Positions 13,357 to 15,719 of a DNA stretch of 18,112 bases are shown in pieces. The first letter of the stretch is position 1; each line of letters starts with the position of its first letter. The position numbers and the translations under genes were made by a program. Source of the DNA: a virus; the UHGV virus genome UHGV-0337628. One strand, 5' to 3'. The notes under the pieces were generated by a model. It did not search any database, had not been told where the DNA came from, and saw nothing but the letters and a program-made list of their open reading frames with translations.

Positions 13357-13824
13357 TCATCGAAGGCATTGCGTCCTGATGTATTCCTGAAGCGTTCTCA
13401 GTGCTGTTTGGTCGCGGATAATTCTGTCCCGGATACCGAGAACGTTTCGTCCAGCAACTGGAGAGAGTTCGACGGTGGCATCATTGCCCATGCCGGAGGC
13501 GCTGGAGGTTTCGTCTGAGGATGGCACAGGGCATTTTCCTTTGACGAGCACCCTGCCACCATTATCAAGCTTCCGCCGAAGAGCATCATTTTCAGCTTTC
13601 GCATCAGCTAACTCCTTCGTGTATTTAGCATCAAGTGCATCAGCATCACGCTGGCGCTGCTGCATGTCAGTAATGGTGGCGGTCGCCTGCTTCAGCTCAC
13701 TGACTTTTTTATCGCGCTGTTCTTTGTAGGTAATGGCGTTATCACGGTAATGATTAACAGCCCATGATAGGCAGACGATGATGCAGATAACCAGAGCGGA
13801 GATAATCGCGGTTACTCTGCTCAT
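13357..13824 (-). CDS. Rz: spanin inner-membrane subunit (i-spanin) Rz
   Basis: 155 aa; N-terminal transmembrane segment and first ~85 residues match my recollection of lambda Rz ([34 protein letters not shown]...[13 protein letters not shown]), then the C-terminal half diverges; start overlaps the R stop. Confidence 0.85.
13398..13604 (-). CDS. Rz1: spanin outer-membrane lipoprotein subunit (o-spanin) Rz1, embedded in the +1 frame of Rz
   Basis: ATG at 13604 with AAGGAG Shine-Dalgarno; product [23 protein letters not shown]... has a signal peptide and lipobox (VAGC) and a Pro-rich stretch, like lambda Rz1; entirely inside Rz. Confidence 0.7.
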
Positions 13825-14297
13825 ACCTCAATCTCTCTGACCGTTCCGCCAGCTTCTTTGAATTTTGCAATCAGGCTGTCAGCCTTATGCTCGAACTGAC
13901 CATAACCAGCGCCCGGCAGTGAAGCCCAGATATTGCTGCAACGGTCGATTGCCTGACGGATATCACCGCGATCAATCATCGGTAAAGCGCCGCGCTCTTT
14001 AATCTGCTGCAGTGCAACAGCGTCCTGGCTTTTGGGAGAGAAGTCTTTCAGGCCAAGCTGCTTACGATAGGCATCCCACCAACGGGAAAGAAGCTGGTAA
14101 CGTCCGGCTGCTGTTGATTTGAGTTTTGGGTTTAGCGTGACAAGTTTGCGAGGGTGATCGGAGTAATCAGTGAATAGCTCTCCGCCTACAATGACGTCAT
14201 AACCATGATTTCTGGTTTTCTGACGTTCGTTATCAGTTCCCTCTGACCACGCCAGCATATCGAGGAACGCCTTACGTTGATTATTGATTTCCACCAT
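13821..14297 (-). CDS. R: endolysin, lambda R-type lytic transglycosylase
   Basis: 158 aa; [23 protein letters not shown]...[23 protein letters not shown]... is essentially lambda R as I remember it; start overlaps the holin gene. Confidence 0.9.
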
Positions 14298-14604
14298 CTT
14301 CTACTCCGGCTTTTTTAGCAGCGAAGCGTTTGATAAGCGAACCAATCGAGTCAGTACCGATGTAGCCGATGAACACGCTCGTTATATAAGCGAGATTGCT
14401 ACTTAGTCCGGCGAAGTCGAGAAGGTCACGAATGAACCAGGCGATAATGGCGCACATCGTTGCGTCGATTACTGTTTTTGTAAACGCACCGCCATTATAT
14501 CTGCCGCGAAGGTACGCCATTGCAAACGCAAGGATTGCTCCGATGCCTTGTTCCTTTGCCGCGAGAATGGCGGCTAACAGGTCATGTTTTTCTGGCATCT
14601 TCAT
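14281..14604 (-). CDS. S: class I holin / antiholin, lambda S-type (S107/S105 dual start)
   Basis: 107 aa; [39 protein letters not shown]... matches lambda S; Met1-Lys2-Met3 dual-start motif (ATG at 14604 and 14598). Confidence 0.9.
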
Positions 14605-15135
14605 GTCTTACCCCCAATAAGGGGATTTGCTCTATTTAATTAGGAATAAGGTCGATTACTGATAGAACAAATCCAGGCTACTGTGTTTAGTAATCAGATT
14701 TGTTCGTGACCGATATGCACGGGCAAAACGGCATGAGGTTGTTAGCGCAACCTCCTGCCACCCGCTTTCACGAAGGTCATGTGTAGAAGGCCGCAGCATA
14801 ACTATCACTGATGAATTCAGGACAGCCAGTGGCTACGGCTCAGTTTGGGTTGTGGCGGTCGGTGCTGAACTCCGACTTAATGACGATAGGCGTGTACCGA
14901 CGCCTCGTTTTACTTCCTCCGCTTTCACGGCTTCACCCTAGACCAGCTTTACGAAATCCTCGTAAACCTAACCGCGGCAGATATGACCGGCACGGTGTGC
15001 CATATCACGGACCGGCGGGTGTCTCGTTCACCTGATTAACGCATCAGCCTGCGTATTCACCACAACGATAAGAGTACTGCGCGGCACCTTTCACCAATTC
15101 CGCGAGGTCTGCGGGTTCAATGCTCTTACCTGTTG
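14605..15135 (-). other. untranslated late-operon leader, lambda-type
   Basis: About 530 nt without a credible ORF between the candidate terminator and S; the minus-strand sequence (e.g. ...CACGAACAAATCTGATTACTAAACACAGTAGCCTGGATTTGTTCTATCAGTAATCGACC...) matches what I remember of the lambda region between tR-prime and S. Confidence 0.6.
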
Positions 15136-15183
15136 TGCAAACAAAAAAGCCACCGTTGCAACTTAAGAGTCACTAACGGCAGC
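15136..15183 (-). terminator. intrinsic terminator at the tR-prime position of the late operon
   Basis: Minus strand GCUGCCGUU ... AACGGUGGC (9-bp stem including two G-U pairs) followed by CUUUUUUGUUUG; located just downstream of the Q gene and upstream of the lambda-like leader. Confidence 0.55.
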
Positions 15184-15186
15184 TTA

Positions 15187-15223
15187 CCCTCTAATTATGG
15201 CTAAATGGCTAATTGCATGTCAA
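15187..15223 (-). promoter_or_regulatory. candidate sigma-70 late promoter (pR-prime analogue) overlapping the Q stop codon
   Basis: Minus strand TTGACA (15223..15218), 18-bp spacer, CATAAT (15199..15194). The -35 hexamer lies inside the last Q codons and the -10 directly after the TAG stop. Predicted start ~15187, only a few nt before the terminator hairpin. Confidence 0.4.
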
Positions 15224-15719
15224 GGCTTTTAACAGCAACATGCTTAACTTTCTCAACACGTTTACGCATTTTGAAAGCATTTTGCATTGGTTGGTACAAA
15301 ACAAATAATGACGCTTTCAGGATATCGTCAATTTCGTTTCTACAGGTTGCCAGTGAAGGTTTTCTCCATCCCTCGCCACCACGCCCACACATCTTGCGTG
15401 GCTTTGCAGTCGCGTGATAGTAGGATGCAATTGCTCGCTTAGATGAACCATGAGCGTAGTAGCTGAGGAGGATGCCAAAGGCTTTCTTGTCAATGTACAT
15501 GACGGAATCGACGACCTGAGAAATCAACATTCCATCATCATCATTACACATTGGCCTTGTCATAACTCTTCCCGGCTCTACGCTCTCCATGAACTTCGCT
15601 ATTACGCTGCTCATGCGCTTTTCCAGGCGACCTGAATAAACCCATGCGCCCCACAGTTCAAGCCAGCCATTCAGCCACTCGTGCTGTTCTTTGGTGAGGT
15701 TTAGTTCTCTTATGCTCAT
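15201..15719 (-). CDS. late-gene antiterminator Q, P22 gene 23 type
   Basis: 172 aa; motifs WLELWGAWV and RPMCNDDDGMLI resemble the LERWGAW and RPQCCDDDAMI motifs I recall from P22 gp23-type Q proteins; immediately upstream of the late promoter/terminator and lysis genes; start overlaps the NinH stop. Confidence 0.7.
   Translation of the reverse strand: MSIRELNLTKEQHEWLNGWLELWGAWVYSGRLEKRMSSVIAKFMESVEPGRVMTRPMCNDDDGMLISQVVDSVMYIDKKAFGILLSYYAHGSSKRAIASYYHATAKPRKMCGRGGEGWRKPSLATCRNEIDDILKASLFVLYQPMQNAFKMRKRVEKVKHVAVKSLDMQLAI

What the first reader, a model, noticed from the sequence alone, without database searches (positions are those of the whole stretch)
15136..15223. Candidate late promoter overlapping the Q stop codon, followed within a few nucleotides by the terminator
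A near-consensus promoter (TTGACA, 18 bp, CATAAT) sits with its -35 inside the last Q codons and its -10 immediately after the TAG. The predicted transcript enters the terminator stem a few nucleotides after the start, giving a terminated RNA of only ~45-50 nt. This would be a very compact Q-binding/pause/terminator unit compared with the 194-nt lambda 6S RNA, and Q would regulate a promoter encoded partly within its own gene.
Basis: partly seen in the sequence, partly recalled or inferred. Interest (0 to 1): 0.5.

Follow-up and report, generated by a model that had tools for sequence, protein, structure and literature searches.

The report
Phage 21-type late promoter and terminator
This is the well-known compact late-gene switch of phage 21-like prophages: a constant promoter at the end of the Q gene, followed at once by a terminator that the Q protein overrides. 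It is real but ordinary, and it occurs in about one in seven complete E. coli genomes.

Summary
All features lie on the minus strand. TTGACA (15223..15218) sits in the last Q codons. An 18-nt spacer holds the TAG stop (15203..15201). CATAAT is at 15199..15194. A strong hairpin (+3..+41, -20.2 kcal/mol, z -4.4) plus a U-run ends about 45 nt after the predicted start at G15187.

The Q protein belongs to the phage 21 family (E 1e-91 to the Q21 structures). The DNA aligns base for base with the curated phage 21 elements: -35, Q-binding element, -10, start site, sigma-dependent pause element and tR' terminator. Positions +2 to +45 are identical to phage 21. The same unit is annotated as pR'/tR' in Sf6 and HK75, and its variant Q-binding repeats (AATTAGCC/ATTTAGCC) were described for phage L.

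Homology to lambda resumes exactly after the U-run, where lambda's own tR' ends. The right comparator is therefore phage 21, not P22 or phage 82. Q acts on the paused polymerase after initiation, not on promoter firing.

One modest extra came out of the comparison. Across 208 related loci, Q residues 95 and 128 track the repeat sequence perfectly.

Interest is low.

The parts
15201..15719 (-). Q antiterminator gene, 172 aa, phage 21 (Q21) family
   Evidence: ORF list and translation. Pfam PF06530 at E 1.1e-25. PDB 6jnx/6p18 Q21 at E about 1e-91.
15218..15223 (-). pR' -35 hexamer TTGACA, inside Q codons 166-168
   Evidence: Promoter scan. Aligns with the annotated pR' -35 of phage 21. It is TTGACA in every window-type and phage 21-type locus; some more distant relatives have TTGACT or TTGCTT.
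15207..15214 (-). Upstream Q-binding subsite (QBEu), AATTAGCC
   Evidence: Aligns with phage 21 QBEu ATTGAGCA. Phage L paper PMC8022706 gives the same repeat. Co-varies with Q residues 95 and 128.
15199..15206 (-). Downstream Q-binding subsite (QBEd), ATTTAGCC. It contains the Q stop codon TAG (15203..15201) and overlaps the -10 by one base.
   Evidence: Aligns with phage 21 QBEd AATGAGCA. The core TTAGCC is present in all 141 loci of this Q subtype that were scored.
15194..15199 (-). pR' -10 hexamer CATAAT
   Evidence: Promoter scan. Aligns column for column with the annotated -10 (AACACT) of phage 21. Invariant in the 79 loci listed with a Q at least 98% identical to the window's.
15187..15187 (-). 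Predicted transcription start (+1, G)
   Evidence: Aligns with the annotated late start site of phage 21 (A at OL657228 39541). It is the seventh base after the -10. Inferred, not mapped.
15180..15186 (-). Sigma-dependent pause element TAAGCTG (+2..+8)
   Evidence: Identical to the annotated SDPE of phage 21. It lies 11 nt after the second repeat in all 208 loci scored. TAAGCT recurs in almost all compact (window/phage 21-type) leaders while the six bases upstream of it vary.
15147..15185 (-). tR' terminator hairpin (+3..+41). Its 5' arm starts inside the pause element.
   Evidence: Fold: -20.2 kcal/mol, z -4.43. Identical to phage 21 tR'. Hairpins of different sequence at the same +3..+42 in GF-2 and L104 types, z -4.6 and -5.8, with double-sided pair changes.
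15139..15148 (-). U-rich tail TTTTTTGTTT, the expected 3' end of the roughly 45-nt RNA
   Evidence: Sequence. Homology to lambda begins at its last base, exactly where lambda's tR' U-run ends.
14605..15138 (-). Lambda-like untranslated leader between tR' and the lysis genes. It carries no tRNA genes, unlike phage 21, Sf6 and L.
   Evidence: Alignment with lambda 44729..45250. ARAGORN finds no tRNA genes. Sf6, phage 21 and L records carry tRNA genes here.
13357..14604 (-). First late genes under this switch: holin S (14604..14281) and, by lambda gene order and size, the presumed endolysin R (14297..13821) and Rz (13824..13357)
   Evidence: ORFs. Pfam PF05106 for the holin; no Pfam match for the 158-aa ORF. 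CUS-3 annotates S and R here. Rz is inferred from position and size only.

Best explanation
This is the late-gene switch (pR' - QBE - SDPE - tR') of a phage 21-type Q cassette, carried by a CUS-3-like, P22-like prophage of E. coli.

Host sigma-70 polymerase starts constitutively at about G15187, from a promoter whose -35 lies in the last Q codons. Sigma region 2 re-binds the -10-like TAAGCT at +2..+7, and the polymerase pauses about 18 bp downstream.

Without Q, the polymerase goes on. The hairpin spanning +3..+41 forms, and the RNA is released in the U-run at about +42 to +46.

With Q, two Q protomers bound to the tandem repeats AATTAGCC/ATTTAGCC between -35 and -10 dock on the paused complex. 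One protomer forms a ring at the RNA exit channel that passes only single-stranded RNA. The hairpin then cannot form at the polymerase, and transcription continues into S, R, Rz and the head genes.

Shown here: the sequence anatomy and its exact homology to phage 21. Taken from the literature on phage 21: the pause, the loading and the ring. Inferred for this subtype: that its Q reads the altered repeats.
For: - The Q protein is in the Q21 family (Pfam PF06530; E 1e-91 to the Q21 structures).
- The curated phage 21 genome annotates -35, QBEu/QBEd, -10, start site, SDPE and terminator. The window aligns to each of them, with 44 identical bases from +2 to +45.
- The same unit is annotated as pR'/qut/tR' in Sf6 and as pR'/tR' in HK75.
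- The repeat variant was described for phage L (PMC8022706).
- Among 79 loci encoding a Q at least 98% identical to the window's, the -35, the downstream repeat and the -10 are invariant. TAAGCT recurs in almost all compact leaders, while the discriminator between the -10 and TAAGCT varies.
- Q residues 95 and 128 co-vary with the repeat sequence in 208 loci and 80 distinct proteins.
- The distance from QBE to SDPE is 11 nt in all 208 loci.
- The hairpin has z -4.43. Hairpins of different sequence occupy the same position in GF-2 and L104 types.
- Lambda homology resumes exactly after the U-run, where lambda's tR' ends.
- The mechanism for phage 21 comes from PMC6606751, bioRxiv 10.1101/651190 and PMC9191641.
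Against: - No experiment exists for this Q subtype. The start site, the pause, the terminated RNA and Q-dependent read-through are all transferred from phage 21.
- The 11/12 promoter match would arise by chance in 16% of shuffled windows.
- The 18-nt spacer is longer than the optimum.
- Covariation within the closely related leaders is uninformative: no double-sided changes, and 114 of 500 shuffles reach the observed score.
- The CUS-3 record labels the segment only as a 'boundary sequence'.
Confidence: 0.93

Rival explanations
1. The 64 bases after Q are only a conserved 'boundary sequence' that promotes recombination between mosaic phage modules. On this view the promoter and hairpin resemblances are incidental.
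For: The CUS-3 record annotates exactly this segment as boundary sequence bsq4. The block +2..+45 is identical between cassettes whose Q genes differ by about 17% in protein. It is joined to at least two kinds of downstream DNA, lambda-like or tRNA genes.
Against: The identical phage 21 sequence is annotated as a terminator on the basis of PMID 1704887, and 21tR' served as the terminator in a Q read-through assay (PMC6606751). The conservation pattern is element-shaped: hexamers and TAAGCT are fixed while the discriminator is free. The repeats co-vary with the DNA-reading residues of Q. Being a recombination junction and being a regulatory unit are compatible.
Confidence: 0.02
2. The hairpin plus U-run is mainly the terminator of the early rightward operon that ends with Q. 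The true late promoter would lie further downstream, as the HK629 record proposes for that phage.
For: The HK629 record places a 'putative late promoter pR'' about 160 bp downstream of Q, after a terminator. Any transcript entering from Q would also meet this hairpin.
Against: HK629 keeps the same TTGACA-repeat-CATAAT promoter at the end of Q, followed by TATGCT at the pause-element position. No promoter-like site of 9/12 or better lies on the minus strand between 15139 and the S start. The HNH insertion that carries HK629's proposed promoter is absent from the window. The phage 21 start site is annotated at the position homologous to 15187.
Confidence: 0.03
3. In addition to being a by-product of the switch, the constitutively made roughly 45-nt RNA has a function of its own in lysogens. 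It would act as a small regulatory RNA, like StxS of Shiga-toxin phages.
For: PMC7547250 shows that the pR'-tR' RNA of Stx phages is an Hfq-binding sRNA. It also notes that similar short RNAs come from phages 21, phi80, 82 and P22, with no known function. The leader, including its loop, is nearly invariant across 16 distinct variants. It is identical between the two QBE classes.
Against: The RNA is almost entirely a closed hairpin with no obvious single-stranded seed. Rfam gives no match. Invariance is equally explained by overlapping constraints (pause element, initial transcribed region, terminator) and by recombination. Other family members use unrelated leaders.
Confidence: 0.08

Closest known systems
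Phage 21 late regulatory region: pR', QBE, SDPE at +2, pause at +18, tR' (Guo, Kainz and Roberts 1991; Q21 structures by Shi et al. 2019 and Yin et al. 2019)
   Same: - Same Q family: 83% protein identity in the four-way alignment.
- Same order and spacing of -35, two 8-bp direct repeats, -10, start, TAAGCT and terminator.
- Bases +2..+45 are identical.
   Different: - The repeats read TTAGCC instead of TGAGCA. Q has R95 and N128 where Q21 has H95 and R128, both listed as base-reading residues in PMC6606751.
- The -10 is closer to consensus (CATAAT against AACACT), and the spacer is 18 nt instead of 17.
- Q is 10 residues longer, so it runs through the -35 and both repeats, whereas phage 21 Q stops 6 bp before the -35.
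- No tRNA genes follow the terminator.
Sf6, HK75, CUS-3 and phage L late regions (same Q subtype)
   Same: 96-98% identical over the 136-base unit. It is annotated as pR'/qut/tR' in Sf6 and as pR'/tR' in HK75. The variant QBE and the predicted start were described for phage L (PMC8022706).
   Different: There are only point differences, for example G or T in the upstream repeat and a variable discriminator. Sf6 and L have tRNA genes after tR'. The window, HK75 and CUS-3 have lambda-like DNA there.
Lambda pR' - 6S RNA - tR'
   Same: The logic is the same: a constitutive promoter after Q, a sigma-dependent pause, a terminator, then S-R-Rz. The window's DNA becomes homologous to lambda immediately after the terminator.
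   Different: - The Q family appears unrelated: only PF06530 and PF06576 reach the 0.001 E-value limit, and PMC6606751 reports no obvious homology or structural similarity between the two proteins.
- PMC6606751 states that the extra -35-like element lambda Q needs is absent from other lambdoid late promoters.
StxS, the pR'-derived small RNA of Shiga-toxin phages (PMC7547250)
   Same: A short RNA made constitutively from pR' and ended at tR' in lysogens.
   Different: StxS is processed from a longer leader to 74 nt and binds Hfq. Nothing of the kind has been tested for this 45-nt hairpin RNA.

Membership tests
Phage 21-type (Q21 family) late antitermination cassette | Q protein of the Q21 family encoded immediately upstream | tested here: met
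   PF06530 at E 1.1e-25. Q21 structures 6jnx/6p18 at E about 1e-91 over residues 1-162.
Phage 21-type (Q21 family) late antitermination cassette | Sigma-70 promoter at or overlapping the 3' end of Q | tested here: met
   TTGACA, 18 nt, CATAAT: an 11/12 match. It aligns with the annotated phage 21 -35 and -10.
Phage 21-type (Q21 family) late antitermination cassette | Q-binding element: two tandem 8-bp direct repeats between -35 and -10 | tested here: met
   AATTAGCC/ATTTAGCC at 15214..15199 aligns with phage 21 QBEu/QBEd. The repeat sequence differs from phage 21 and co-varies with Q residues 95 and 128.
Phage 21-type (Q21 family) late antitermination cassette | -10-like sigma-dependent pause element at +2..+7, at a fixed distance from the QBE | tested here: met
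   TAAGCT at 15186..15181 is identical to phage 21. It lies 11 nt after the second repeat in all 208 loci scored.
Phage 21-type (Q21 family) late antitermination cassette | Intrinsic terminator shortly downstream, followed by late genes on the same strand | tested here: met
   Hairpin at +3..+41 with z -4.43, plus a U-run. It is identical to phage 21 tR'. The holin S and the presumed R and Rz follow.
Phage 21-type (Q21 family) late antitermination cassette | Pause at about +18 and Q-dependent read-through of the terminator | not testable with these tools
   This needs in vitro transcription. It is known for phage 21 only (PMC9191641; PMC6606751).
Lambda-type pR'/6S RNA unit | Lambda-type Q protein with a long (about 194 nt) leader | tested here: not met
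   The Pfam scan at E <= 0.001 returns only PF06530 and PF06576, so no lambda-type Q family is matched. The leader is about 45 nt. Lambda homology starts only after the terminator.
Phage 82-type late unit | Phage 82-type Q protein with a pause at +25 | tested here: not met
   The Pfam scan at E <= 0.001 returns only PF06530 and PF06576. The pause element is at the phage 21 position, not the phage 82 one (PMC9191641). That phage 82's Q is a separate Pfam family is from memory and was not tested.
pR'-derived regulatory small RNA (StxS-like) | Stable RNA that binds Hfq and base-pairs with targets | not testable with these tools
   Rfam gives no match. The RNA is predicted to be almost fully paired.

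The most novel reading that the evidence does not exclude
The roughly 45-nt pR'-tR' RNA would be more than a by-product of the switch. This prophage element occurs in about 14% of complete E. coli genomes, so the RNA would be made constitutively in those lysogens. Its sequence from +2 to +45, loop included, is identical between cassettes whose Q proteins and Q-binding repeats have diverged. On this reading the RNA has a trans-acting or protein-binding role of its own, as StxS does in Shiga-toxin phages.
Probability: 0.08. Interest if true: 0.5.

Novelty: already known. Interest (0 to 1): 0.1.

Why it matters
As a finding it mainly confirms that a reader working without tools can recover a textbook regulatory unit from raw sequence.

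The unit matters biologically because it gates all lysis and virion genes of a very common class of E. coli, Shigella and Salmonella prophages: 755 of 5,426 complete E. coli genomes carry it.

Two small points go slightly beyond the database annotations.

1. The segment is mislabelled or unlabelled in several records. CUS-3 calls it a 'boundary sequence', and HK629 places pR' elsewhere.
2. Family-wide, Q residues 95 and 128 track the Q-binding repeats across three classes in the tabulation (TGAGCA, TGAGCC, TTAGCC). A fourth class, TTTACC, is seen by eye in four loci. This could guide the design of orthogonal antiterminator/promoter pairs. The basic point was already made for phage L against phage 21 (PMC8022706).

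Tried and rejected
- **Rfam and tRNA scans** of the whole window found nothing. The leader is not a curated RNA family, and the tRNA genes that follow tR' in phage 21, Sf6 and L are absent here.
- **Covariation test on 16 distinct compact leaders** was uninformative. There were no double-sided changes, and 114 of 500 shuffles reached the observed score, because the leaders are 96% identical. Support for the hairpin comes instead from its energy, from its identity to phage 21 tR', and from hairpins of different sequence at the same position in GF-2 and L104 types.
- **A conserved 5' hairpin in all family leaders.** I considered that every leader, including the longer two-hairpin ones, shares such a hairpin. 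The first hairpins of the long leaders are weak (z +0.2 to -2.6), so I do not claim this.
- **Guo et al. 1991 (PMC207295)** is not held in the library. Its content is cited only through the OL657228 annotation and later papers.
- **The phage 21 template sequences** are not in the text or supplements of Shi et al. or Yin et al..
- **The promoter match on its own** is not statistically decisive.
- **The first IMG/VR scan** with the window's Q returned only relatives at 98% identity or more. Three further scans with more distant Q proteins were needed.

Full report
**What is in the sequence.** The genes of this window run on the minus strand. An ORF of 172 codons (15719..15201) ends ...KSLDMQLAI-TAG. 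Read on that strand, TTGACA lies at 15223..15218, inside codons L-D-M. After an 18-nt spacer that contains the stop codon (15203..15201) comes CATAAT at 15199..15194. Seven bases further on is G15187, followed by TAAGCT. A 17-pair hairpin spans 15185..15147, and TTTTTTGTTT lies at 15148..15139. The hairpin folds at -20.2 kcal/mol, z = -4.43 against dinucleotide shuffles.

**How strong the promoter match is.** On statistics alone it is only suggestive. It is the only site in the window matching at least 10 of 12 positions, but shuffled windows give 0.18 sites of 11/12 or better, and 16% of shuffles have one. The case rests on context and homology.

**What the surroundings are.**
- The ORF is a Q antiterminator of the phage 21 family (Pfam PF06530, E 1.1e-25). 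It matches the crystallised Q21 protein over residues 1-162 at E about 1e-91.
- Upstream lie NinH, RusA and a KilAC/Rha-type antirepressor protein.
- Downstream lie a lambda-type holin S and ORFs the size of lambda R and Rz, then the head genes of a P22-like phage.
- The window is closest to coliphage CUS-3: 98.6% over the Q-to-S region, and about 95% over most of the window.

**Direct comparison with phage 21.** The curated complete genome of phage 21 (OL657228) annotates these elements in order: the pR' -35; the Q-binding element (QBEu ATTGAGCA and QBEd AATGAGCA, after Yin et al. 2019); the -10 (AACACT); the late start site; the sigma-dependent pause element; and a terminator credited to Guo et al. 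1991 (PMID 1704887). That terminator begins two bases after the start and ends 50 nt from it.

The window aligns with this region column by column:
- The -35 hexamers coincide.
- The two 8-bp repeats coincide.
- CATAAT lies exactly over AACACT.
- G15187 lies over the annotated start.
- From TAAGCT to the sixth T of the U-run, 44 bases are identical.

An older phage 21 record even annotates a 50-nt RNA here. The same unit is annotated in records of the window's own Q subtype:
- In Sf6: a promoter 'nearly identical to phage 21 late promoter', a qut site and tR'.
- In HK75: pR' and tR'.
- In phage L: a terminator.

The phage L genome paper describes the altered repeats AATTATCC/ATTTAGCC overlapping the 3' end of the gene. 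It predicts the start site and notes that three of the six QBE-contacting residues differ from Q21 (PMC8022706).

**Position relative to lambda.** Aligning the region with lambda shows no similarity through the promoter and hairpin. Near-identity then starts at TGCACAACAGGTAAGAGCATTGA, directly after the U-run of this terminator and directly after the U-run of lambda's own tR'. The hairpin therefore sits at the tR' position of a lambda-like late leader. This is independent positional evidence that it is the late terminator. It also explains why CUS-3's annotators saw the segment as a mosaic 'boundary sequence'.

**Comparative evidence for each element.** I collected about 320 loci encoding Q21-family proteins from IMG/VR, plus phage records.
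- Among 79 loci whose Q is at least 98% identical to the window's, the -35, the downstream repeat and the -10 never change. TAAGCT recurs in almost all compact leaders. The six bases between the -10 and TAAGCT vary freely: TAGAGG, TAGAAG, TAGCAG, TAGCTG, TATAGG.
- The same promoter and repeats are joined in some phages (HK629 type) to a different leader. That leader keeps a -10-like TATGCT at the same position but puts an unrelated terminator at about +59.
- Across 208 loci (80 distinct proteins) the second repeat ends 11 nt before the TAnnnT element in every case.

**Covariation between Q and its binding repeats.** Shi et al. list H95, A124, R127, R128 and R113 as base-reading residues (PMC6606751). 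The repeat sequence tracks these residues as follows:

| Q residues | Repeat core | Loci |
|---|---|---|
| H95 or I95 with R128 | TGAGCA | 60 |
| R95 with R128 | TGAGCC | 7 |
| R95 with N128 (the window's type) | TTAGCC | 141 |
| R95, E124, K128 | TTTACC | 4 (seen by eye only) |

The first three rows come and the last. There are few independent lineages, so this is a correlation across perhaps six clades and not a statistical proof. It is nevertheless what one expects if the repeats are the Q-binding element.

**The terminator hairpin.** Within the closely related compact leaders, covariation is uninformative. However, two more distant family members have hairpins of different sequence at the same +3..+42, each followed by a T-run:
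- Edwardsiella phage GF-2, z = -4.6.
- The L104 type, z = -5.8.

Both show double-sided pair changes relative to the window, for example C-G to G-C at +6 and U-A to A-U at +12.

**Mechanism.** Shown here: the anatomy and its homology. Taken from work on phage 21:
- pR' is described as always active (PMC7547250).
- Sigma-dependent pausing occurs 18 bp downstream of phage 21 pR' (PMC9191641).
- Two Q protomers bind the direct repeats and engage the paused complex. One forms a ring or nozzle at the RNA exit channel that admits only single-stranded RNA, so terminator hairpins cannot form there (PMC6606751; bioRxiv 10.1101/651190).
- A template carrying 21 pR' and 21 tR' shows Q-dependent read-through, boosted by GreB.

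Inferred for this window: the 172-aa Q reads TTAGCC repeats, the start is at about G15187, and the terminated RNA is about 42-46 nt. A consequence of the compact layout is that the 5' arm of the terminator begins inside the pause element. Q must therefore be loaded before the 3' arm, at +25..+41, is made.

- Q does not control promoter firing. It modifies the polymerase after initiation.
- The useful comparator is phage 21. P22 has a lambda-type Q. That phage 82 has yet another type is from my own knowledge.
- Overlap of Q's 3' end with its own promoter is real here but variable in the family. The stop codon lies upstream of the -35 in phage 21, inside the -35 in GF-2, in the upstream repeat in a Klebsiella type, and in the downstream repeat here. 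The 10 extra residues fall beyond the end of the 162-residue crystallised protein and are probably incidental.

**Rivals.**
- A pure 'boundary sequence' without function is contradicted by the phage 21 experiments and by the element-shaped conservation.
- A late promoter further downstream, as in the HK629 annotation, finds no support. No other promoter-like site lies on this strand before S, and HK629 itself keeps this promoter.
- A function of its own for the 45-nt RNA, by analogy with StxS, cannot be excluded. However, the RNA is almost fully paired and matches no Rfam family.

**Verdict.** It is characterised experimentally in phage 21 and annotated or described for this very subtype in Sf6, HK75 and L. 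It is common: 755 of 5,426 complete E. coli genomes carry it, many at 100% identity. Interest is low.

Noticed in passing
window 15394..15426, + strand (antisense, inside Q): A paQ-like promoter that would depend on CII. TTGCGTGGCTTTGC matches TTGY-N6-TTGY and is followed 13 nt later by TAGGAT. It aligns with the annotated paQ (CII site, -35 and -10) of phage 21. The motif alone is not enriched in the window (5 found, 4.7 expected). The support is positional homology.
   Followed up: partly
related loci L011-L333, L091, L092, L334; window 15199..15214: Q residues 95, 124 and 128 co-vary with the 8-bp Q-binding repeats.
- H95 or I95 with R128: TGAGCA.
- R95 with R128: TGAGCC.
- R95 with N128: TTAGCC.
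- R95, E124 and K128: TTTACC.

There are no exceptions in the 208 loci tabulated for the first three classes. The fourth class was seen by eye in four loci. Few independent lineages are involved. The contrast between phage L and phage 21 was already noted in PMC8022706.
   Followed up: partly
L003 830..935 (HK629); also L025, L026, L032, L043, L050, L051, L063, L065, L073, L085: The same Q, promoter and repeats are joined to a second leader type. It has TATGCT at the pause-element position and an unrelated terminator (AGCCCACCTCCTGTGGGCTTTTTT) at about +59. In one locus (L026) no terminator is found within 110 nt. The HK629 record places pR' about 160 bp further downstream, which conflicts with the conserved promoter.
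   Followed up: partly
window 15188..15193 (minus strand): The six-base discriminator between the invariant -10 and the near-invariant TAAGCT is the most variable stretch of the unit among otherwise near-identical loci: TAGAGG, TAGAAG, TAGCAG, TAGCTG, TATAGG, TTGGAG.
   Followed up: no
L005/L093 (AJ237660) against L334 (OL657228): The older phage 21 fragment reads GCAAGT-AGCAAC where the complete genome reads GCAAATGAGCAAC. This damages the downstream Q-binding subsite. It fits the statement that the complete genome corrects single-base errors in earlier fragments.
   Followed up: yes
window 14706..14779, minus strand: A stable nested structure in the untranslated leader upstream of S, centred on GGCAGGAGGTTGCGCTAACAACCTCATGCC followed by GTTTTGCCC. 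It folds at -33.7 kcal/mol over 91 nt, z -2.9. The region is nearly identical in lambda. Its function was not examined.
   Followed up: no
window 14860..15045, minus strand: Relative to lambda, the leader between tR' and S carries a block of about 125 bases that lambda lacks, within a poorly aligned stretch. A 74-codon ORF on the + strand (14811..15035) overlaps it and was not examined.
   Followed up: no
whole unit, window 15125..15260: The 136-base unit occurs in 755 of 5,426 complete E. coli genomes, up to four copies per genome, and many copies are 100% identical. RefSeq annotates only the Q gene there.
   Followed up: yes
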